Shown: one piece after another, positions 2,337 through 40,779 of the stretch | Layout of the letters: each line of letters opens with the position of its first letter | Numbering within the stretch: position 1 is the first letter of the stretch | DNA from: Enterobacteria phage GEC-3S | Strand: one strand, 5' to 3' | Length of the DNA stretch: 64,000 bases | Sequence record: HE978309 | The notes under the pieces: generated by a model | Told to the model about the DNA's origin: nothing | What the model saw: only the letters and a program-made list of their open reading frames with translations | The model's database searches: none | Translations under genes and position numbers: made by a program

Positions 2337-3062
2337 TTACTTGAGTGTGTGGAATTGGCTATGTTTAGTCTCTCGCACCTTGACAGACCCATCGCGTTTG
2401 ATATAATAGATCAGTGACTTGAGGGTGTCGTGTACATACGCGTGCGGGAAACGCTCTGGATACTTCTTCCAATCTGGAGTATTAACGATCCAGTCGAAAA
2501 TCCACCACGGGCAGGAGTAGTAACCACGACCGCCACCGATCAAACAAATGGTCGGACGGAAACCAGTAAGATCGCAAAATGAATCAGTGTCATGTGCAGG
2601 AGAACGATGCTCTGCTTCGTCAGAGAAAATGTTTGCTACCGGAGATTTCACTTTAACTTCCGGTGCTTCTTCAACATCTGACTTAACTTCTTCGACCACT
2701 GGTTCAACTGCTGGAGATTCTTCTTTTGTTTCTTCAATGACGATCTCAGGTTCTTTCATTGCTTCAACCAGAGACGGATCAACTTCGTCGAATACTACTT
2801 TATCATCTGCGGTATCTGCTGCCAGAATAAGATCGTTAATACTGGTTCCTTCTGCCGGAGTTTCTTCTTCCATTTCGGAAGCCAGTTTAGTTAATTCGGT
2901 TTCTACGAACTCGATCATGTTCTCTAACGAGAGCGTCTTTTTGACCTTTATATCAAATTGTTTTGCGTAGTCCGCTAATTCTGTTTTAGCGGTTTTCTGT
3001 GCTTCTTTGTCGTCGGACGCCGCAATAGCGCGGAGTTCTTCGAAATATTCTTTATCAAACAT
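2337..3062 (-). CDS. acidic protein, possibly Inh (prohead protease inhibitor) by position
   Basis: 241 aa, Glu-rich centre, Cys-rich C-terminus; lies between hoc and uvsW as inh does in T4; no motif-level confirmation. Confidence 0.4.
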   Translation of the reverse strand: MFDKEYFEELRAIAASDDKEAQKTAKTELADYAKQFDIKVKKTLSLENMIEFVETELTKLASEMEEETPAEGTSINDLILAADTADDKVVFDEVDPSLVEAMKEPEIVIEETKEESPAVEPVVEEVKSDVEEAPEVKVKSPVANIFSDEAEHRSPAHDTDSFCDLTGFRPTICLIGGGRGYYSCPWWIFDWIVNTPDWKKYPERFPHAYVHDTLKSLIYYIKRDGSVKVRETKHSQFHTLK

Positions 3063-3088
3063 GTTATTCTCCTGATTGGGGGTGTTTG

Positions 3089-3096
3089 TATAAATA
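3089..3096 (+). promoter_or_regulatory. T4-type late promoter (TATAAATA) for uvsW
   Basis: exact TATAAATA about 35 nt upstream of the uvsW ATG. Confidence 0.5.
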
Positions 3097-3132
3097 TTTG
3101 TATACTGTATTTATTGAGTGAGGCTATTCGCT

Positions 3133-4635
3133 ATGCAAGATATTAAAATTCACTTTCTGAACTACTCCCATGTTCAAATTGAATGTAGCGATTCAATTTT
3201 ATTAGAAATGCGAGATTATTTTAGTTTTGAAGTCGAGGGAGCAAGATTTCAAAAAAGATTTAAGTATGGTGGATGGGATGGGCGTATTCGTCTTTTAGAT
3301 TACAACGGAAAGCTGCCAATCGGTCTAACTAAAACCGTGGGAATCTTCGCTAAAAATATGGGCTATAGCGTATGGGTAGATCCTCGCTTATTCGAAAAAG
3401 AACAAGTTACAGAAGAAGAAATTACAAAATGGTGTAATGACTTAGAATTATATTCCGGTGCTAACAGGATCACCCCTCATTGGTATCAATCAAAGGCCGT
3501 CTTTGAAGGTATTCATCATAAACGCCGTATGTTAGTTTTGCCTACGTCCGCTGGTAAATCTGCGATTGCTTGTATGTTGTCTCGTTGGTACTTAGAGAAT
3601 TACGAAGGGAAAGTGTTGATCATCGTTCCTACCACGTCGCTAGTGCTGCAAATGCGTGATGACTTTGTTGATTATCGCCAGTTTCCTTATGAAGCAATTC
3701 ATACTATCATGAGCGGTACTAGTAAACACGTAGGTGATCGCCTGATCGTTGTTAGTACGTGGCAATCTGCATGTAAACAACCTAGTGAGTGGTTCCAACA
3801 ATTCGGGATGGTTATTGTTGACGAATGTCACAAGGCTACTGCTAAAAACCTGCTAAACATCGTTACTGATATGGATCATTGCCAATTTAAGATCGGCATG
3901 ACTGGTTCCCCTCGTGACGGGAAAGCTAACATGATGCAGTATGTCGGGCTTTTTGGTGATATTTCTAAGATCGTGAGTATTGACCGCCTGATGGAAGAAG
4001 GTCAAGTGACAAAACTGAAAATTAACTGCCTTTTCCTTCGTTATACCGATGAGGAATGTAGCGCGGTTAAGGGGCGAGAATATGCGGAAGAGATCAAGTA
4101 TATTACATCTAACCCACGACGAAATAAGTTTGCTTGCAATTTGGCGCTAAAACTCGCTAAGAAGGGCGAAAACGTATTCCTGATGTTCCGCAATACTAAG
4201 CACGGAAAACTTATGTATGATGCGTTACAGAAGGTACACGACAAGGTTTATTATATTGACGGTGGAGTTAAGACAGAAGAACGTGATGAATTTAAGAAAA
4301 TGGCGGAGGGTGACACCGGGATCATTTGTGTTGCGTCTTATGGTGTGTTCTCTACTGGTGTTTCAATTAAGAATTTGCACCATGTTATTTTCGGTCATCC
4401 AGTGAAGGAATCAACTATCGTTCGTCAGAGTATCGGTCGTGCATTGCGTAAACATGGTTCGAAAGACATTGCAACGGTCTGGGATCTTATAGATCATCTG
4501 GCGGTGAAGACAAAGAGCAAGAATGCTAAGAAACAGTTTAGTCACCTTAATTATGCTCTTAAACATGCCCTTGAAAGAATAAAAATTTACAATACCGACC
4601 GATTCGAATATGTCACGAAAACCATCGAGATTTAA
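3133..4635 (+). CDS. uvsW: UvsW DNA/RNA helicase
   Basis: ORF track 3118..4635 starts at GTG; the ATG at 3133 gives MQDIKIHF..., matching T4 UvsW as I recall it; Walker A LPTSAGKS and helicase motifs. Confidence 0.93.
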   Translation: MQDIKIHFLNYSHVQIECSDSILLEMRDYFSFEVEGARFQKRFKYGGWDGRIRLLDYNGKLPIGLTKTVGIFAKNMGYSVWVDPRLFEKEQVTEEEITKWCNDLELYSGANRITPHWYQSKAVFEGIHHKRRMLVLPTSAGKSAIACMLSRWYLENYEGKVLIIVPTTSLVLQMRDDFVDYRQFPYEAIHTIMSGTSKHVGDRLIVVSTWQSACKQPSEWFQQFGMVIVDECHKATAKNLLNIVTDMDHCQFKIGMTGSPRDGKANMMQYVGLFGDISKIVSIDRLMEEGQVTKLKINCLFLRYTDEECSAVKGREYAEEIKYITSNPRRNKFACNLALKLAKKGENVFLMFRNTKHGKLMYDALQKVHDKVYYIDGGVKTEERDEFKKMAEGDTGIICVASYGVFSTGVSIKNLHHVIFGHPVKESTIVRQSIGRALRKHGSKDIATVWDLIDHLAVKTKSKNAKKQFSHLNYALKHALERIKIYNTDRFEYVTKTIEI

Positions 4636-34659: not shown

Positions 34660-34701
34660 TGAATTATAGCGGGGATTTCTCCCCGCGTCAACACTTATTT
34701 T
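34660..34701 (-). promoter_or_regulatory. promoter with palindromic spacer, just downstream of nrdA
   Basis: TTGACG, spacer CGGGGAGAAATCCCCGC, TATAAT. Confidence 0.5.
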
Positions 34702-36943
34702 ACAGCTTGCAAGATGAGCACTCGCTAGAGTCTTCCGTACCATCTGCACCGTCGCGAACGTTCGCATAATACAGGGTTTTCAGACCGTAATATTGAGCAA
34801 ACAACATATCATCTAAAACATCAGCAATATCGACTTTACCCGTCTTATAAGTGCTTGGGTCGTAGGATGTATTGGAACTAATCGCCTGGTCTACAAACTT
34901 CTGCATGATCGCTGCCAGTGTCAGATAAGGCTTGTTACCTTTCTTGATCAGTGTCCAAAGCAGGTCAATAACATCAGCATTATTCTCTACGTTCGGAATA
35001 ACCTGATTAAATTGCCCTTCTTTCGATCCTTTAACCGATACAATCCCGCGAGGCGGTTCAATACCGTTTGTGCTGTTAGACACCTGAGAAGACGACTCAC
35101 AAGGCATCAGCGCCGAAAGCGTACTGTTACGAATGCCATATTTTTTCAGGTCTTCGCGCAGTTCTTCCCAATCCATCTCATACACCGGATCAACCAGTTC
35201 ATCTACTGTCTTTTTGTACCAGTCGATAGGAAGTTCACCGCGACCATAGCGTGTTTCGTGCATCAGTTCGCAAGCACCCTTCTCTTTTGCTAGCTGCACA
35301 CTAGCTTTAATCAGAGCATATTGCAAGCGTTCAAACGTTTTATGCGTAAACTCGTTAGCGTCTTCATATGTGAAGAAATTATCTGCTAGATATGATGCAA
35401 AGTTAGTCACACCAACACCCAGAGAGCGACGTTTTTTGGCTGTCAGAGCTTGTTCTACAGGATAATCCTGGTAATCTAACAGGTTGTCAAGTGCACGCAC
35501 CATAACCATAGCAATGCGTTCTACTTCTTCCATATTTTCGATATCAAAGTTTCCTAAAACATATGCTGCCAAAGTGCATAGGCTGATCTCTGAATCATCA
35601 CGACCCATCGGTTTTGTAGGCAGAGCAATTTCACAACACAGGTTGGATTGTTTAATCGGTGCTACATTACGAATAAACGCCCCGTGATTGTTCATGTTGT
35701 CTGTGAACGTTGGGTAGATTCGACCAGTGTTAAAACGTTCAATTGCCACCGCTAAAAACAGGTCTTCGGCTTTAACACGAGTTTTACGAACACTCGGATC
35801 TTTTTCCAGTTTTTCGTAAAGCTGGCGGAAACCTTCCTCATCTCGGAAGTATAGATCCCACAACAAGCCACCTGCAACATCTGGACTAAACAGAGTAATG
35901 TAATCCCGTTTAAGGAATCGCTCTACCATCAGGTTATTAATCTGTACGCCGTAGTCAAGATGGCGAATGCGGTTATCTTCCACGCCCTTATTGTTCTTTA
36001 ACACAATCAGACTTTCAAACTCTAAATGCCACATTGGGTAATAGAGAGTCGCCGCCCCGCCACGAATACCGCCTTGTGAGCATGACTTAACGGCAGTCTG
36101 AAAATGTTTCCAGAATGGGATAACGCCAGTATGACGAACTTCACCATGCCCGATCTTAGATCCTTCCGCGCGAATCATGCCAGCGTTGATACCGATACCC
36201 GCACGCTTGCTAATATACTTGATGATTGCATTTGCTGTTTCGTTGATGCCCTGCAATGAGTCATCACTTTCAATCACCACACACGAACTAAATTGGCGTG
36301 TTGGGGTACGCACACCAGCCATAATCGGAGTAGGCAGAGAGATTTGCTTATTCGAAACAGCATTATAAAAATCAATCACATGTTCAAGTCGATTTTCTGT
36401 CTCTTCTTGATGCAAGCACATACCGATCAGCATATACGCAAATTGCGGTGTTTCGATGATTTTCTTAGTGCTGCGATCCTGAACAAGATATTTCTCTTTT
36501 AACTGCATCGCACCAGCATAGGTCATTTTAAAATCAAGTTTATGGTCGATGAATTTCTCCAGATATTCCACTTCTTCACGGGAATACTTTTGCAGAATTT
36601 CACGATCATATTTTCCGGTTGCAATATTACGCTCAATATGGCTGTAAAAATCAATCGGTTGGAATTGACCGTATACTGATTTGCGAAGCGCGAACATTGC
36701 AAGGTTACTTGCTACATATTGATAATCGGGTGTTTCTACAGTAATGTTATCTGCTGCGACCTTAATCAATACTTTCTGGATATCATTGGTAGACATACCT
36801 TCTGTCAGAAGTGGTTCAACCATATCAAACAATTCATATGGATCAACGTTATGACCTTCGGCTGCCGCTTCCAGAATTTTCATTACTTTTTCTTTTTCAA
36901 ACGGAACAGTCAGACCGGAAGACTTAACAACATTTTTAATCAT
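34700..36943 (-). CDS. nrdA: ribonucleotide reductase large subunit
   Basis: 747 aa; class Ia RNR alpha features, synteny with nrdB. Confidence 0.9.
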   Translation of the reverse strand: MIKNVVKSSGLTVPFEKEKVMKILEAAAEGHNVDPYELFDMVEPLLTEGMSTNDIQKVLIKVAADNITVETPDYQYVASNLAMFALRKSVYGQFQPIDFYSHIERNIATGKYDREILQKYSREEVEYLEKFIDHKLDFKMTYAGAMQLKEKYLVQDRSTKKIIETPQFAYMLIGMCLHQEETENRLEHVIDFYNAVSNKQISLPTPIMAGVRTPTRQFSSCVVIESDDSLQGINETANAIIKYISKRAGIGINAGMIRAEGSKIGHGEVRHTGVIPFWKHFQTAVKSCSQGGIRGGAATLYYPMWHLEFESLIVLKNNKGVEDNRIRHLDYGVQINNLMVERFLKRDYITLFSPDVAGGLLWDLYFRDEEGFRQLYEKLEKDPSVRKTRVKAEDLFLAVAIERFNTGRIYPTFTDNMNNHGAFIRNVAPIKQSNLCCEIALPTKPMGRDDSEISLCTLAAYVLGNFDIENMEEVERIAMVMVRALDNLLDYQDYPVEQALTAKKRRSLGVGVTNFASYLADNFFTYEDANEFTHKTFERLQYALIKASVQLAKEKGACELMHETRYGRGELPIDWYKKTVDELVDPVYEMDWEELREDLKKYGIRNSTLSALMPCESSSQVSNSTNGIEPPRGIVSVKGSKEGQFNQVIPNVENNADVIDLLWTLIKKGNKPYLTLAAIMQKFVDQAISSNTSYDPSTYKTGKVDIADVLDDMLFAQYYGLKTLYYANVRDGADGTEDSSECSSCKL

Positions 36944-37011
36944 ATTACCTCACTTCATATTTTAGCAGGAACAAGTTTATCCTCCATATTGGGGGCTTTC
37001 GCCCCCTTTGT

Positions 37012-38235
37012 TTATACTGCCATTTGAGCGGTGATCGCTGGATGGCTTTGATAGTTGTGAATTTTAAAATCTTTCGGAGTCTTTGTCAATACCTCATCTA
37101 AAGATTTAAATTCCGGCAACTCAATTGTTGGTTTATCAAACGGAACACGGCTTAACTGTTCCATAACTTGATCAAAATGGTTTTTGTAAATGTGGCAATC
37201 CCCACACTGATAAACCAGTTCGCCAACTTCTAACCCGCAAATCTTCGCGATGATATGCGTTAACAGTGCATAGCTCGCTACGTTGAACGGATTCCCTAAA
37301 AAGAGATCATTCGAACGCATGAAAAATAAACAACTCAATTTGTTGTCGTTGGAAACATAAAACTGTACCATCGGATGACATACACCTAACACAGCATTAT
37401 GCGTTTCCTGTACGTTCCATGAATCAATGATAATACGACGACTATACGGATCATTCTTGATCATGTCAATAACTTTTTGTAACTGGTCTTCCCAAATCTT
37501 CGGGCGATAGACATATTCTTCATCGTCTTTAGTGCTTGATGTGTCTACGTCCATACTAACAAACATCGTGGTATCCGGTGCTATAATATCCCCACCCAGA
37601 TAATCACTATCAAGCAGATAACCGAAATAACCATCATCTACCCATTCCTGGAATCCCCACAAGCAATATGCATCATTAACAAAATTAGATTGAGTCTTCC
37701 AGTGGTCTGCTACCAGAATATAATCAAACTCTTCATAACGCATACCACGCCAGATAGCACATAAACGGTCTTCTGTGTCATTGGTTGGCGTAAAGTCTTC
37801 TACCCACGGGTGCTTAAATGTATGTGTATATTTGCTCTTAACGCGCTTAATTTTGATTTCACCATGTGGATGAATCGGTTTGCGTCGCCACGCCATACCA
37901 TACATATTGCCGACATTATAACCATTGAATCGCAAGGGATTCTTTTCTTTCATATCAAGACAGTTGCCGCGCCAAATATCAAAGGCTTCCTCGTCAAACT
38001 TGCCGCGTGTAATTTCCTGTAAGCGACGGCGGTCAAGTGATCCCTCCATAAACCATAGCAATTCGCCAATCACAGAGGCTGTAGCCATCTTTTTAGTGGT
38101 CAGTAATGGGAAACCCTTGCTTAAATCAATTCGCATCTCTGCGCCGAATTTAGAGAGCGTACCTACCCCCGTGCGGTCTTCACGAGGACAGCCATTATCA
38201 AGAACATCACGCAACAGTTTCAAATATTCTTTCAT
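37012..38235 (-). CDS. td: thymidylate synthase with a large internal insertion
   Basis: 407 aa; conserved DRTGVGT, catalytic CHPMVQFYV, SNDLFLGNPFNVASYALL; roughly 120 extra residues between YGMAWRR and DPYSRRII; no intron. Confidence 0.85.
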   Translation of the reverse strand: MKEYLKLLRDVLDNGCPREDRTGVGTLSKFGAEMRIDLSKGFPLLTTKKMATASVIGELLWFMEGSLDRRRLQEITRGKFDEEAFDIWRGNCLDMKEKNPLRFNGYNVGNMYGMAWRRKPIHPHGEIKIKRVKSKYTHTFKHPWVEDFTPTNDTEDRLCAIWRGMRYEEFDYILVADHWKTQSNFVNDAYCLWGFQEWVDDGYFGYLLDSDYLGGDIIAPDTTMFVSMDVDTSSTKDDEEYVYRPKIWEDQLQKVIDMIKNDPYSRRIIIDSWNVQETHNAVLGVCHPMVQFYVSNDNKLSCLFFMRSNDLFLGNPFNVASYALLTHIIAKICGLEVGELVYQCGDCHIYKNHFDQVMEQLSRVPFDKPTIELPEFKSLDEVLTKTPKDFKIHNYQSHPAITAQMAV

Positions 38236-38476
38236 CCCACATCACCTTTTTCTTGTTGATTGCTTTCTTACGCAGTTTTGCTACTGTCTCGTCAATATCG
38301 ATAAAGACAACGCCACGGTCGAATATAGTAGCAGGTCTTGAGATATCGCTATTTTCTTGCACAGGAAGCCATGATGCGCTCGCTTCATCATAGAGATATT
38401 GTAAACCGTAATAATCTACGGCTACTGCGTAGTTTTCACTGGTAGCCGTCCATAATTGAATAATACCGACTTTCAT
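38207..38476 (-). CDS. hypothetical protein (89 aa)
   Basis: ORF track 38207..38503; start MKVGIIQLW coupled (TAATG) to the upstream mini-ORF. Confidence 0.45.
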   Translation of the reverse strand: MKVGIIQLWTATSENYAVAVDYYGLQYLYDEASASWLPVQENSDISRPATIFDRGVVFIDIDETVAKLRKKAINKKKVMWDERIFETVA

Positions 38477-38568
38477 TATTGTTCCCGTCCGCAATGTAAG
38501 CACCGACTACCAGCAAACATCAAAGATTCACCACAATGTTTGCACTCATAATCTGTAAGAATTTTCAT
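38476..38568 (-). CDS. zinc-ribbon mini-protein (30 aa)
   Basis: MKILTDYECKHCGESLMFAGSRCLHCGREQ; AAGAAGGCG RBS; coupled to the frd stop. Confidence 0.35.
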   Translation of the reverse strand: MKILTDYECKHCGESLMFAGSRCLHCGREQ

Positions 38569-38569
38569 G

Positions 38570-39139
38570 TTACGCCTTCTTACGTTCTAAAATTTGTTCG
38601 CTGATCAGGTAATTATCAAGGAAGTAATTATGTTCTTCTTTGGTTACAAAGTCAAAATACAATTCCTGAATCATTTCCTTAGAGATACCAACATCATATT
38701 CAAATGGATCGTTGATCCCTGAACGTTGAACATACGTTAACACAATACGGTCCGCAAAGTCAACCGCTTTTTCAATCAGGGAAGGTCCGCCGATAACACT
38801 TACCAAACCTTGCGTTTTCTCCAGGACTTTTAACAGATCCTTTAATTCAATTCCAGTATACACATTAGGCTGGTCGCCGTTTTTGGCTTTCGGTGTCGGC
38901 TTGCTGGCATCGGTACTAATAACCACATTAAGACGACCTTCCAGTGCTTTAGGGAGACTTTCAAAGGTATTACGTCCCATTACAACCGCCGCAAGATCAA
39001 CATCTCCCATAGTGCGCATTTTAAAGTTTTCCATGTCCTTTTTAATTGGACGCCCCCACGGTAAACCGCCTTTAAAACCAAAAGACCATTTTTCATCTGA
39101 CATTTTAGTGTCACCAATAGCAAATACACATTGAATCAT
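38570..39139 (-). CDS. frd: dihydrofolate reductase
   Basis: 189 aa; GLPWGRPIKKDMENF...VVMGRNTFESLP DHFR motifs. Confidence 0.85.
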   Translation of the reverse strand: MIQCVFAIGDTKMSDEKWSFGFKGGLPWGRPIKKDMENFKMRTMGDVDLAAVVMGRNTFESLPKALEGRLNVVISTDASKPTPKAKNGDQPNVYTGIELKDLLKVLEKTQGLVSVIGGPSLIEKAVDFADRIVLTYVQRSGINDPFEYDVGISKEMIQELYFDFVTKEEHNYFLDNYLISEQILERKKA

Positions 39140-39512: not shown

Positions 39513-39554
39513 TGCATTATACACTATTGCGTTACGCTGTCAACTCTTTTTCAA
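39513..39554 (-). promoter_or_regulatory. early promoter (sigma70-like)
   Basis: TTGACA, about 16 nt, TATAAT. Confidence 0.5.
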
Positions 39555-40710
39555 AAGATTTTACGATATACATGATGGTGCTCAATTCGGACGGCGCTAC
39601 TGTCTCTGTGTAGCCATCCGGCATATCTTCTTTCGAGATATAGGAAGTTTTACCTTTCATTGCTTCCTTGATTTTGTTCTCTAATTCTAAGATCTTTTGA
39701 CCGTCTTGTAAAGTCAATTCATAAAAGATCTCATGATCGAACTTTGAAACACGAGATTGGTTTCTCATGCGCTCATGTGTTTCTTTGTTTGTTATTCCAA
39801 ATTTCACGCCAACAAAGGAATCATTGTTGGTTAATTTCTGTATATAAAGAGTTCCTGTCTTTAATGCCTGATAACCATGCTTAGAACACAACGGGCAGCG
39901 TGTTCCGCGATTAACAAAATTATCAATAGTTACATCCCATTCATGGTTACGTTCGCATGTCAGAAGTATTCTTGTTAATGCACCTTTCCACTTTCCTGAA
40001 ATCCCAATAAATTTTAGTCTGTTGGTTTCGCATATTTTTTCAATTTGTTTTAATCGGTCACTTTTTGTTATTGGTGCTGTTCCGCTACATTTGCGACACC
40101 GACGACCTAGTTTGAACTTATCATAACTTTGTTCGTAAATGTGATTATTAGGACACTCAAATTTAAGTTTAGTTTTTGTTCCTCTCCATTCCCCAATTAT
40201 ACCCAAAAATTTATAATCTCCTTTATTTTCATTTATATAAGATAAGGAATCTTCTTTATCATGCATCTTGCCCCCGTTACATAAAGGACATCTTGTTTTT
40301 TGATGAATGAAATCTGTATATGTTGGTTGGTATGTGTGTCCGTTTGTACAGTTCATAATGAGTCTTGTTCTGCTATTTTTATACTCCCCACCAACAAAAC
40401 CAACAAATACATCGTTTGTTTCTTGTTTTATTCTTTCTATCACATTGTTTGGGTTTAATCTTTGAGAATCAACCACACATTTCTTACACGAAACTTTTTT
40501 CCTGATATTTGCTAGAGTTGATGTGTATTCATGCTTGTTATTACATAATATAAGAGCTTTTGTTTTGAGACCAGACCATTCTCCAACAAACCCCATGAAA
40601 GAATAACCAACTTCCAAACATGATTTTTTTACAACATTTTCCCAATAGAAGGGAGTTTTCGTGTTTCCTTTTATTTCTATACGAATCTCATGTGCTTGAC
40701 GTACTAACAT
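39532..40710 (-). CDS. protein with four zinc-ribbon repeats and a C-terminal T5orf172/GIY-YIG-like domain
   Basis: ORF track 39532..40755; start MLVRQAHEIR with GGAGGA RBS; four repeats of G..G.W.G..TK....C...H.Y...(F)....RC..C; C-terminal GTLYIQKL...VGVKFGITN. Confidence 0.55.
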   Translation of the reverse strand: MLVRQAHEIRIEIKGNTKTPFYWENVVKKSCLEVGYSFMGFVGEWSGLKTKALILCNNKHEYTSTLANIRKKVSCKKCVVDSQRLNPNNVIERIKQETNDVFVGFVGGEYKNSRTRLIMNCTNGHTYQPTYTDFIHQKTRCPLCNGGKMHDKEDSLSYINENKGDYKFLGIIGEWRGTKTKLKFECPNNHIYEQSYDKFKLGRRCRKCSGTAPITKSDRLKQIEKICETNRLKFIGISGKWKGALTRILLTCERNHEWDVTIDNFVNRGTRCPLCSKHGYQALKTGTLYIQKLTNNDSFVGVKFGITNKETHERMRNQSRVSKFDHEIFYELTLQDGQKILELENKIKEAMKGKTSYISKEDMPDGYTETVAPSELSTIMYIVKSFEKELTA

Positions 40711-40737
40711 ATTTTTATCCTCCGTTGTTTCGATGAT

Positions 40738-40779
40738 TGTATTATACATTACCACATCAGCATGTCAATACATTTTCAT
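40738..40779 (-). promoter_or_regulatory. early promoter (sigma70-like)
   Basis: TTGACA, 16-17 nt, TATAAT, directly after the gp32 terminator. Confidence 0.5.

What the first reader, a model, noticed from the sequence alone, without database searches (positions are those of the whole stretch)
37485..37857. Thymidylate synthase with an in-frame insertion of about 120 residues
td (37012..38235) encodes 407 aa, against about 286 aa for T4 td and 264 aa for E. coli ThyA as I recall them. The extra residues lie as one block between the conserved YG.QWR-type segment (YGMAWRRKP) and the DPYSRRII segment, while the catalytic CHP and SNDLFLG motifs are intact. The block has no intein termini and the reading frame is unbroken, so it is not an intron or intein.
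Basis: partly seen in the sequence, partly recalled or inferred. Interest (0 to 1): 0.45.

Follow-up and report, generated by a model that had tools for sequence, protein, structure and literature searches.

The report
Fossil homing-endonuclease domain inside thymidylate synthase
The extra ~125 residues in this phage's thymidylate synthase are real and translated, and appear to be the worn-down remnant of a selfish DNA-cutting (homing endonuclease) module that other phages carry full-size at the same spot in the same enzyme, with no intron or intein to remove it.

Summary
A single block of about 121-128 residues (about 121-248) sits between YGMAWR and DQL, and all thymidylate synthase (TS) catalytic residues are intact. 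The window is a Krischvirus (RB49-like), and all 57 Krischvirus records carry the insert.

It is coding, not spliced. There is no Rfam intron hit and no intein domain, dN/dS is 0.26, and AlphaFold models it confidently as a separate domain on a beta-hairpin stalk.

Origin: dozens of diverse phage TS proteins (400-740 aa) carry a larger insert at the same site. A profile of these inserts matches the N-terminal domain of ICP1 Gp59 (hhalign 98.8%, E=1.4e-16). Gp59 is a founding member of the IPA-HNH homing endonucleases.

Full-size inserts keep an LDKD...N motif. The Krischvirus copy has lost this motif and both flanking sub-domains.

In Asteriusvirus jumbo phages, 3 genomes have the insert and about 25 lack it. 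The insert comes with divergent flanking td sequence while the gene ends stay 94-98% identical, which is a homing-like co-conversion pattern.

Verdict: an ordinary active TS carrying a decayed, in-frame, splice-free relic of a homing endonuclease. I found no description of this in-frame arrangement in the literature I could search.

The parts
37012..38235 (-). td gene, 407-aa ThyA-type thymidylate synthase including the stop codon
   Evidence: ORF list. Pfam PF00303 E=1.9e-83. Annotated td/thymidylate synthase in ELT3, JSE, RB49 and others.
37876..38235 (-). N-terminal part of the TS core (residues 1-120), ending in the YGMAWRRKP motif
   Evidence: Aligns to E. coli ThyA 1-102 and T4 Td. dN/dS 0.045 among Krischvirus.
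37492..37875 (-). In-frame insert (residues ~121-248): a decayed IPA-HNH-type homing-endonuclease module
   Evidence: Gap block in the alignment with T4 Td and ThyA. phrog_2081 'HNH endonuclease' E=0.067 for the window copy, and down to 2e-50 for full-size copies at the same site. Insert profile vs ICP1 Gp59: 98.8%, E=1.4e-16. AF2 pLDDT 93.5 for the insert alone. dN/dS 0.26.
37846..37884 (-). First strand of the beta-hairpin stalk (residues 118-130, RKPIHPHGEIKIK)
   Evidence: DSSP on the AF2 model: E118-130. The motif P.(N)PHG..I.R is shared by insert-bearing TS.
37636..37779 (-). Helical core of the insert (residues 153-200; conserved W162, W179, F185, D188, LWGFQEWVD)
   Evidence: Helices 153-168, 177-189 and 195-200. 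W162, W179, F185 and D188 are invariant or nearly invariant across 32 insert-bearing TS.
37555..37620 (-). Degenerate beta-beta remnant of the HNH-like motif (residues 206-227, YLLDSDYLGGDIIAPDTTMFVS). The Lys of LDKD is replaced by Ser, and the following helix with its Asn is missing.
37486..37515 (-). Second strand of the stalk (residues 241-250, EYVYRPKIWED), rejoining the TS core at DQL
   Evidence: E241-250. The V.RP.I..DQL motif is shared by insert-bearing TS.
37015..37491 (-). C-terminal part of the TS core (residues 249-407) with DPYSRR, the catalytic CHP, RSND and HIY motifs
   Evidence: Pfam stretch 250-407. Residue mapping.
37168..37467 (-). Mosaic tract just downstream of the insert (residues ~257-356). 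The window/KFS-EC allele is only 50-82% nt identical to RB49 here, against >=95% in the rest of td except two 20-codon windows inside the insert (85% around the SEYN indel, 92%).
   Evidence: Sliding identity. dS 0.8-1.1 in the C-terminal core against 0.1 in the insert. The tract ends at the same HIYKNH motif as the co-converted tract in Asteriusvirus.

Best explanation
td encodes a normal, catalytically competent ThyA-type thymidylate synthase. One surface loop, just after the YGxxWR helix (E. coli W101-H108), carries an extra domain of about 125 residues that is translated with the enzyme and never removed.

The domain is the decayed remnant of an IPA-HNH-type homing-endonuclease module. This divergent HNH-like family was defined from Vibrio phage ICP1 Gp59/Gp115/Gp209. 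In many other phages the full module (about 240-290 aa) sits in frame at exactly this site of TS. It consists of an N-terminal beta sub-domain, a helical core with an LDKD...N motif, and a C-terminal sub-domain.

Inferred mechanism:
1. The element entered td by double-strand-break repair or gene conversion, carrying flanking td sequence with it.
2. It landed in a loop that tolerates a whole domain, so it needed neither an intron nor an intein.
3. After fixation in the RB49-like lineage its nuclease and DNA-binding parts decayed. The N- and C-terminal sub-domains were deleted, LDKD became LDSD, and the motif helix was lost.
4. What remains is a compact helical stump on a two-stranded beta stalk. 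Selection keeps it foldable because a misfolded insert would damage an essential enzyme.

Shown: the insert exists, it is coding, it is lineage-wide, it is homologous to the HEG module, its motifs have decayed, and the full-size form shows presence/absence with replaced flanks in Asteriusvirus.

Inferred: the historical invasion by homing, the loss of nuclease function, and the present role as a tolerated passenger.
For: TS identity and intact active site.

Coding, not spliced:
- Open frame.
- dN/dS 0.26 in the insert, against 0.045 and 0.18 in the core.
- In-frame 4-aa indel SEYN within the insert.
- No Rfam hit.
- No Hint/intein Pfam domain.

Separate folded domain: full-length AF2 model pLDDT 94.6 / pTM 0.92, with stalk strands 118-130 and 241-250. 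Insert alone: pLDDT 93.5.

Lineage-wide: 57 Krischvirus records have it. A more distant T4-like 169-kb contig with frd-td-nrdA has a 55%-identical td with a short insert.

Same-site larger inserts:
- 32 TS proteins of 401-613 aa.
- 23 of these 32 hit phrog_2081 'HNH endonuclease' (best 2e-50), and one also hits Pfam I-HmuI_NUMOD-like.
- 84 of the top 147 50%-identity cluster representatives found with the insert profile are TS-embedded.

Homology to a described HEG family:
- Insert profile vs ICP1 Gp59 residues 25-170: probability 98.8%, E=1.4e-16.
- Gp59 is a founding IPA-HNH HEG (PMC10448857).
- tblastn of a full-size insert finds 1445 phage records, mostly small free-standing genes annotated HNH endonuclease next to polymerase, primase, terminase or TS genes.
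- BFVD fold matches to the same kinds of proteins.

Decay: LDKD..YS..TC.F....N is kept in nearly all full-size inserts shown but lost in the short ones, including the window.

Mobility of the full-size form: UE-S1, phiKp_21 and KP13-7 carry it, while about 25 other Asteriusvirus-like jumbo phages have a 309-aa TS. The gene ends are 94-98% nt identical, but the centre (insert plus about 27 upstream and about 100 downstream codons) is only 43-73% identical.

Scattered distribution: insert-bearing TS are spread among insert-less TS in a core tree. For example, the P0040 core is 75% identical to an insert-less TS but at most 65% to any insert-bearing one.
Against: - The window copy alone matches the HEG family only weakly: phrog_2081 E=0.067 and BLASTP to Gp59 E=0.028. 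Its assignment rests on transitive homology through full-size TS inserts.
- No IPA-HNH protein has been shown biochemically to cut DNA. The HNH label comes from HHsearch in PMC10448857 and from PHROG names.
- dN/dS of 0.26 and retention in every Krischvirus genome would also fit a domain that has acquired a function.
- The Asteriusvirus pattern shows exchange of the central td segment but does not by itself give the direction or prove endonuclease-driven homing.
- The NJ tree has no support values, and co-converted flanks confound it.
Confidence: 0.62

Rival explanations
1. The insert is an exapted, functional accessory domain of Td. For example, it could be a docking or nucleic-acid-binding module that ties TS to the phage dNTP-synthesising or replication machinery, or regulates td expression. 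Its HEG ancestry would then be only history.
For: It is retained in all 57 Krischvirus records and in more distant T4-like relatives. It is under purifying selection, dN/dS 0.26. It has a confident, compact fold. Several core positions (W162, W179, F185, D188) are invariant across very diverged copies.
Against: Constraint is about 6-fold weaker than in the N-terminal TS core. In-frame indels occur within the genus (SEYN). The motif conserved in full-size copies is lost in different ways in different short copies (LDSD, LTQK, LSCD, LSLV), as expected for decay rather than for a new shared function. No ligand or partner is suggested by any search.
Confidence: 0.25
2. The Krischvirus insert is still an active homing endonuclease domain that cuts insert-less td alleles of co-infecting phages.
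For: It is homologous to a HEG family. A recombinant tract lies immediately downstream of the insert among Krischvirus genomes.
Against: It lacks the N-terminal and C-terminal sub-domains of full-size copies. The Lys of LDKD and the downstream helix with its Asn are missing. No presence/absence polymorphism exists in Krischvirus. The insert itself is nearly identical across alleles that differ downstream.
Confidence: 0.05
3. The segment is removed after transcription or translation, as a group I/II intron read in frame or as an atypical intein.
For: td genes are classic hosts of introns (T4 td) and of inteins in other phages (bioRxiv 10.1101/2025.01.02.630785).
Against: There is no Rfam match at E<=1 over 36500-38800. 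The segment is in frame with both flanks and shows a synonymous bias. Protein-level conservation extends down to 34% identity in other phages. There is no Hint, intein or LAGLIDADG Pfam domain in any of 32 insert-bearing TS. The junctions lack the intein His-Asn followed by a Cys/Ser/Thr residue (sequence). AF2 integrates the two junction strands as a hairpin continuous with the TS core.
Confidence: 0.02
4. The insert is a lineage-specific expansion of the variable TS 'small domain' with no mobile-element ancestry, like the 50-residue insert of Lactobacillus casei TS. On this view its similarity to HEG proteins is chance or convergence.
For: This region of TS is known to vary in length. L. casei TS is 316 aa. 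PBECO4 TS has its own unrelated ~35-aa extension at the same loop. The window copy has only weak direct similarity to HEG families.
Against: Profile-level homology is strong (E=1.4e-16 to Gp59; PHROG E down to 2e-50). Intermediates of every length connect the window copy to full-size modules at the same site. The same module occurs as thousands of free-standing phage genes.
Confidence: 0.04

Closest known systems
IPA-HNH homing endonuclease genes (ICP1 Gp59, Gp115-116, Gp209; Barth et al. 2023, PMC10448857)
   Same: The insert family is homologous to their N-terminal divergent HNH-like domain (hhalign 98.8%). It has the same phage hosts and the same association with nucleotide-metabolism and replication genes.
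   Different: Described members are free-standing genes with a C-terminal AP2 DNA-binding domain. Here the module is embedded in frame inside TS, has no AP2 domain, and in the window is truncated with the conserved LDKD...N motif lost.
Intein-encoded and intron-encoded homing endonucleases in nucleotide-metabolism genes (e.g. T4 td group I intron with I-TevI; ICP1 NrdA intein)
   Same: A selfish endonuclease module sits inside an essential, conserved gene at a fixed site. In Asteriusvirus it shows presence/absence among relatives and replaced flanking host-gene sequence.
   Different: There is no splicing element of either kind. The host protein simply carries the extra domain.
Free-standing HEG insertions that split host genes (Aeromonas phage Aeh1 nrdA split by mobE; Friedrich et al. 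2007, cited in PMC5374615) and in-frame enlargements of mitochondrial cox2 (PMC5374615)
   Same: A HEG-associated insertion into a coding gene that retains function without splicing.
   Different: In Aeh1 the gene is broken into two polypeptides. Here a single polypeptide with an internal extra domain results.
Known length variants of ThyA (L. casei 50-residue small-domain insert; short eukaryotic loop inserts)
   Same: The extra residues lie in the variable small-domain region on the enzyme surface and leave the catalytic core intact. That the eukaryotic insert lies in this same loop is from my memory of TS structures, not tested here.
   Different: The insert is much larger, forms an autonomous domain on a stalk, and has a traceable mobile-element ancestry.

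Membership tests
ThyA-type thymidylate synthase (Pfam PF00303) | Sequence match above the curated family threshold | tested here: met
   280.2 bits against a cutoff of 24.3, in two stretches. PDB TS hits down to 1.8e-66.
ThyA-type thymidylate synthase (Pfam PF00303) | Catalytic Cys-His and the dUMP phosphate-binding arginines (E. coli C146, H147, R21, R166, R126', R127') | tested here: met
   C286, H287, R21, R307, R266, R267.
ThyA-type thymidylate synthase (Pfam PF00303) | Asn at E. coli position 177, which gives dUMP rather than dCMP specificity (Asp in dCMP hydroxymethylases; established knowledge) | tested here: met
   N318 in NPFNVASY.
ThyA-type thymidylate synthase (Pfam PF00303) | dTMP synthesis activity | not testable with these tools
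   Needs an enzyme assay or thyA complementation.
IPA-HNH homing endonucleases (PMC10448857) | Homology to the N-terminal divergent HNH-like domain of ICP1 Gp59/Gp115/Gp209 | tested here: met
   Insert-family profile vs Gp59: 98.8%, E=1.4e-16. The window copy alone is weak: BLASTP E=0.028, phrog_2081 E=0.067.
IPA-HNH homing endonucleases (PMC10448857) | Conserved LDKD...(G/S)N..YS..TC.....N motif of the domain (the putative active site) | tested here: not met
   The window has LDSD...GD..APDTT..VS and no following helix or Asn. Full-size TS inserts keep the motif.
IPA-HNH homing endonucleases (PMC10448857) | C-terminal AP2 (or other) DNA-binding domain | tested here: not met
   No Pfam domain in the insert. 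Only one full-size relative has an I-HmuI NUMOD-like domain.
IPA-HNH homing endonucleases (PMC10448857) | Variable presence among closely related genomes | tested here: not met
   Fixed in 57/57 Krischvirus records. Met for the full-size form in Asteriusvirus: 3 genomes with it, about 25 without.
IPA-HNH homing endonucleases (PMC10448857) | Site-specific DNA cleavage and homing | not testable with these tools
   Needs nuclease assays and mixed-infection crosses.
Canonical HNH / beta-beta-alpha-metal nucleases (Pfam HNH, HNH_3) | Recognisable HNH domain with a general-base His and metal-binding Asn/His | tested here: not met
Inteins | Hint splicing domain, N-terminal Cys/Ser, and C-terminal His-Asn followed by Cys/Ser/Thr | tested here: not met
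   No Hint/intein Pfam family in 32 insert-bearing TS. The junction sequences lack these residues.
Group I / II introns | Conserved ribozyme structure; no need for a frame continuous with both exons | tested here: not met
   No Rfam match at E<=1. The frame is continuous and there is codon-level purifying selection.

The most novel reading that the evidence does not exclude
The TS-embedded modules represent a fourth lifestyle of homing endonucleases, beside free-standing, intron-borne and intein-borne. In this lifestyle a splice-free, in-frame domain insertion is expressed as part of the host enzyme and homes into td/thyA at one permissive loop, dragging flanking td sequence with it. The Krischvirus insert would be the fixed fossil of such an element. 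Because TS is an obligate dimer, the host enzyme could even pair two nicking HNH-type domains to make a double-strand break (speculation).
Probability: 0.4. Interest if true: 0.8.

Novelty: new variant of a known kind. Interest (0 to 1): 0.6.

Why it matters
Homing endonuclease genes are thought to survive inside essential genes only by hiding in self-splicing introns or inteins, or by sitting between genes. Here the same kind of module is simply tolerated as an extra domain in a surface loop of an essential enzyme.

This form is diverse: at least 84 TS-embedded 50%-identity clusters among the top hits. In Asteriusvirus it shows a homing-like presence/absence pattern with replaced flanks.

If confirmed, three things follow:
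- It widens the known routes by which selfish nucleases invade genes.
- It explains many over-long 'thymidylate synthase' annotations in phage genomes.
- It offers a natural series from intact to fossil copies for studying how enzymes absorb foreign domains.

For Krischvirus itself the practical message is modest. Td is an ordinary TS with a passenger domain. Its Asn at the specificity position argues against it being the missing cytosine-modification enzyme of this genus.

Tried and rejected
- The search for homologous proteins with the insert alone timed out twice. The full-length query worked.
- Pfam on the window insert and on a full-size insert found nothing at E<=10. Pfam on three free-standing homologues found nothing relevant.
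- A profile search of PDB sequences with the insert alignment gave only a chance hit, E=1.1.
- Foldseek against PDB found nothing below E=3.
- The afdb50 library was unavailable.
- hhalign of the insert profile to a canonical HNH_3 protein (fPS-9 g045) gave no alignment. The HNH link therefore stays indirect.
- Intron hypothesis: rejected on Rfam and codon statistics.
- Intein hypothesis: rejected on the absence of Hint domains and junction residues.
- I considered that Td might be the unknown cytosine-modifying enzyme of Krischvirus. PMC13390438 reports that the genus lacks 5hmC/5hoC synthase homologues. I set this aside because the specificity Asn (N318) and all TS residues are canonical.
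- I tested whether the RB49-type downstream tract was recently imported from T4. It was not: only 57-68% nt identity.
- Literature searches for a prior description of an HNH/HEG insertion in TS found none. The library covers only open-access papers.
Full report
**1. The observation**

The ORF at 37012..38235 on the minus strand encodes 407 aa. It lies between frd (38570..39139; Pfam DHFR_1) and nrdA (34700..36943), the T4-type arrangement.

The window is a Krischvirus, an RB49-like 'pseudo-T-even' phage. The region is 99.1% identical to phage ELT3, 98.3% to JSE and 92% to RB49.

Pfam Thymidylat_synt matches in two pieces, with residues 250-407 covering profile positions 110-266. Solved thymidylate synthases align only to residues 4-88 and 240/250-407.

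I rebuilt T4 Td (286 aa) from the exons of NC_000866 and took E. coli ThyA (264 aa) from NC_000913. MAFFT places one uninterrupted block of extra residues after YGMAWRRKP and before (KIWE)DQL:
- The block is 121-128 residues depending on gap placement (residues ~121-248, window 37492..37875).
- In E. coli numbering the site is the loop W101-H108.

All catalytic and ligand-binding residues are intact. These include C286/H287, the four phosphate-binding arginines, and N318, the residue that sets dUMP rather than dCMP specificity.

**2. It is translated, not spliced**

- The frame is continuous with both flanks.
- Among nine Krischvirus td genes, pooled pN/pS is 0.26 in the insert, against 0.045 in the N-terminal core and 0.18 in the C-terminal core. 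The insert also carries an in-frame 4-codon indel, SEYN.
- Copies only 34-63% identical in other phages keep the frame.
- A permissive Rfam scan of 36500-38800 found nothing.
- No Hint, intein or LAGLIDADG Pfam domain occurs in this protein or in 31 other insert-bearing TS.
- The junctions lack intein signature residues.

AlphaFold2 with a 32-sequence alignment gives pLDDT 94.6 and pTM 0.92 for the whole protein:
- The insert leaves the core as a long strand (118-130) and returns as a second strand (241-250).
- In between are four helices (153-168, 177-180, 182-189, 195-200) and a small beta pair (206-209, 224-227).
- Modelled alone, the insert reaches pLDDT 93.5.

**3. Distribution**

All 57 Krischvirus records that match td carry the insert. 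No close insert-less td exists in the phage collection.

A search of 5.8 billion proteins returned about 35 long TS proteins of 401-613 aa. In the alignment every one has its extra residues at this same site, flanked by shared junction motifs P.(N)PHG..I.R and V.RP.I..DQL.

One of them, P0006 (55% identical to the window Td), comes from a 169-kb T4-like contig with gp59-gp32-...-frd-td-nrdA-nrdB. The short insert is therefore older than the genus.

**4. What the insert is**

The window insert has no Pfam match. The full-size insert of Asteriusvirus UE-S1 Td (517 aa) hits PHROG families annotated 'HNH endonuclease': phrog_2081 at 4e-32, phrog_953 at 6e-25 and phrog_374 at 8e-21. The window insert hits phrog_2081 at E=0.067 over the corresponding profile region. 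Of the 32 insert-bearing TS, 23 hit phrog_2081 (best 2e-50), and one also has a Pfam I-HmuI NUMOD-like domain.

tblastn with a full-size insert finds 1445 phage records and 2031 places. Most are small free-standing genes annotated HNH endonuclease, DNA-binding or hypothetical. Examples:
- Yersinia phage fPS-9 g047, between the terminase subunits.
- Vibrio phage D391_0038, between primase and polymerase.
- Vibrio phage K470_0227, two genes upstream of a normal TS gene (one small ORF between).
- ICP1 Gp59, next to the DNA polymerase.

Barth et al. 2023 (PMC10448857) define Gp59, Gp115-116 and Gp209 as 'IPA-HNH' homing endonucleases. These have an N-terminal HNH-like domain too divergent for Pfam, detected by HHsearch, plus a C-terminal AP2 domain. 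They are abundant in Barbaviruses and other phages. That paper does not mention thymidylate synthase.

A profile of the TS inserts aligns to Gp59 residues 25-170 with probability 98.8% and E=1.4e-16.

Structure searches agree but add little:
- BFVD returns other insert-bearing TS and small phage proteins, including some named 'Homing endonuclease' and 'I-HmuI-like NUMOD-like'.
- Foldseek on PDB and a profile search of PDB sequences give nothing.

**5. The Krischvirus copy is a decayed version**

Full-size inserts (about 240-290 aa) have three parts: an N-terminal beta sub-domain, a helical core (W..M..R.Y / W..F.NF..D), and a C-terminal sub-domain following the motif LDKD(Y/F).G...YS..TC.F......N.

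That motif is kept in nearly all full-size copies. Among 84 TS-embedded cluster representatives, 68 keep a DKD-like motif.

The short copies lack both outer sub-domains. They have also lost the motif in different ways:
- LDSD in the window.
- LTQK, LSCD and LSCK in relatives 61-63% identical.
- LSLV in P0006.

By eye the motif lines up with the HNH_3 signature DH.D...NN...NL..VT...N, with Lys in place of His. This reading is mine and is not supported by hhalign to a single HNH_3 protein.

**6. Evidence that the full-size form moves**

Within Asteriusvirus-like jumbo phages, UE-S1, phiKp_21 and KP13-7 have the 517-aa TS. About 25 others (PBECO4, 121Q, slurp01, JP4 and more) have a 309-aa TS in the same gene neighbourhood.

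Comparing UE-S1 with PBECO4:
- The first ~270 nt and the last ~175 nt of td are 95-98% identical.
- Everything between is only 43-73% identical. This covers about 27 codons upstream of the insert, the insert itself, and about 100 codons downstream, ending at GGDCHIYKNH.

The insert therefore came, or left, together with a tract of foreign td sequence. This is the pattern expected from double-strand-break repair with co-conversion of flanks.

In a neighbour-joining tree of TS core columns, most insert-bearing proteins form one clade, but others scatter among insert-less TS. For example, the P0040 core is 75% identical to an insert-less TS and at most 65% to any insert-bearing one. The tree has no support values. 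Because flanks travel with the insert, it cannot be read simply.

With the insert profile, 23,390 clusters (50% identity) match at E<=1e-3 and 4,203 at E<=1e-10. Of the top 147 new representatives, 84 are TS-embedded.

**7. Interpretation**

The best-supported reading is this. An IPA-HNH-type element entered td in frame at a loop that tolerates a whole domain, so it needed no intron or intein. It became fixed in the RB49-like lineage and then lost its nuclease and DNA-binding parts. A foldable stump remains, which selection keeps from misfolding.

The main rival is that the stump has acquired a function. Universal retention and dN/dS of 0.26 allow this. The heterogeneous decay of the motif, and the absence of any hint of a ligand, argue against it.

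Still-active nuclease, intron, intein, and 'ordinary small-domain expansion' are each contradicted by specific tests (see rival explanations and membership rows).

**8. Comparison with what is known, and novelty**

The protein is a member of ThyA-type TS. The insert works like, and descends from, the IPA-HNH HEG domain. The window copy nevertheless fails that family's defining features: the motif, the AP2 domain, the free-standing gene, and variable presence. It should not be filed as an IPA-HNH endonuclease.

The in-frame, splice-free embedding of such a module in an enzyme is not described in any paper I could search. The nearest precedents are:
- HEG insertions that split genes (Aeh1 nrdA).
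- In-frame enlargements of mitochondrial cox2 (PMC5374615).

I rate it a new variant of a known kind. The window copy by itself is a relic of moderate interest. The class it reveals is more interesting.

**9. Limits**

- Nothing here shows nuclease activity for any IPA-HNH protein.
- The structures are predictions.
- The direction of the Asteriusvirus exchange is inferred from the 3-versus-25 distribution.
- The literature library holds only open-access papers.

Noticed in passing
window 37168..37467 (-), td residues ~257-356: Mosaic tract immediately downstream of the insert. The window, KFS-EC, JSE and ELT3 share one allele. RB49, Phi1, pEJ01 and others share another that is only 50-82% nt identical (dS 0.8-1.1, dN 0.13), while the N-terminal core and most of the insert are >=95% identical (two insert windows are 85% and 92%). 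The tract is centred on the position of the T4 td intron / I-TevI homing site (window residue 315). It ends at the same HIYKNH motif as the co-converted tract in Asteriusvirus. The RB49-type tract is not a recent import from T4 (57-68% nt identity).
   Followed up: partly
window 39532..40755 (-): A 407-aa ORF two genes upstream of frd carries four CapR-homology zinc-finger domains (Pfam PF21817, E=9e-30). In ICP1 this DNA-binding module is typical of T5orf172/GIY-YIG-type homing endonucleases. It is therefore a likely free-standing HEG-like gene in the td neighbourhood.
   Followed up: partly
window ~37690..37700 (-), td residues ~174-175: In-frame 4-codon indel inside the insert. RB49, KFS-EC and SFHK24 have SEYN after EEFD, whereas the window, Phi1, pEJ01, G2248, PHB13 and E26 lack it.
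   Followed up: yes
window 38207..38503 (-): A 98-aa ORF (GTG start) overlaps the td start codon region by 29 nt. It is homologous in position to the annotated hypothetical RB49p236 (270 nt in RB49). It has no Pfam match.
   Followed up: no
L017:2362-3291 (PBECO4 td) versus L001:2455-4008 (UE-S1 td): The insert-less Asteriusvirus TS (309 aa) has its own unrelated ~35-residue extension in the same loop (WREWEDYKFSSSTEEIQELKDKGYKVIDYTGSHGVVMKRTTDQL). This loop is therefore a repeated site of length change in phage TS.
   Followed up: no
whole td; literature (PMC13390438): A 2026 paper reports that some Krischvirus phages carry modified cytosines although the genus lacks homologues of 5hmC/5hoC-dCMP synthases (TS-superfamily enzymes). 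Td is the obvious TS-family gene, but it has the canonical Asn (N318) and a full TS active site, so it is unlikely to be that missing enzyme.
   Followed up: partly
L013:1387-2208 and 2433-3281 (Vibrio phage K470): A free-standing 273-aa member of the same HNH-like family lies two genes upstream of a normal-length thymidylate synthase gene, with one small ORF between. This may be an 'intronless homing' arrangement targeting the same host gene.
   Followed up: no
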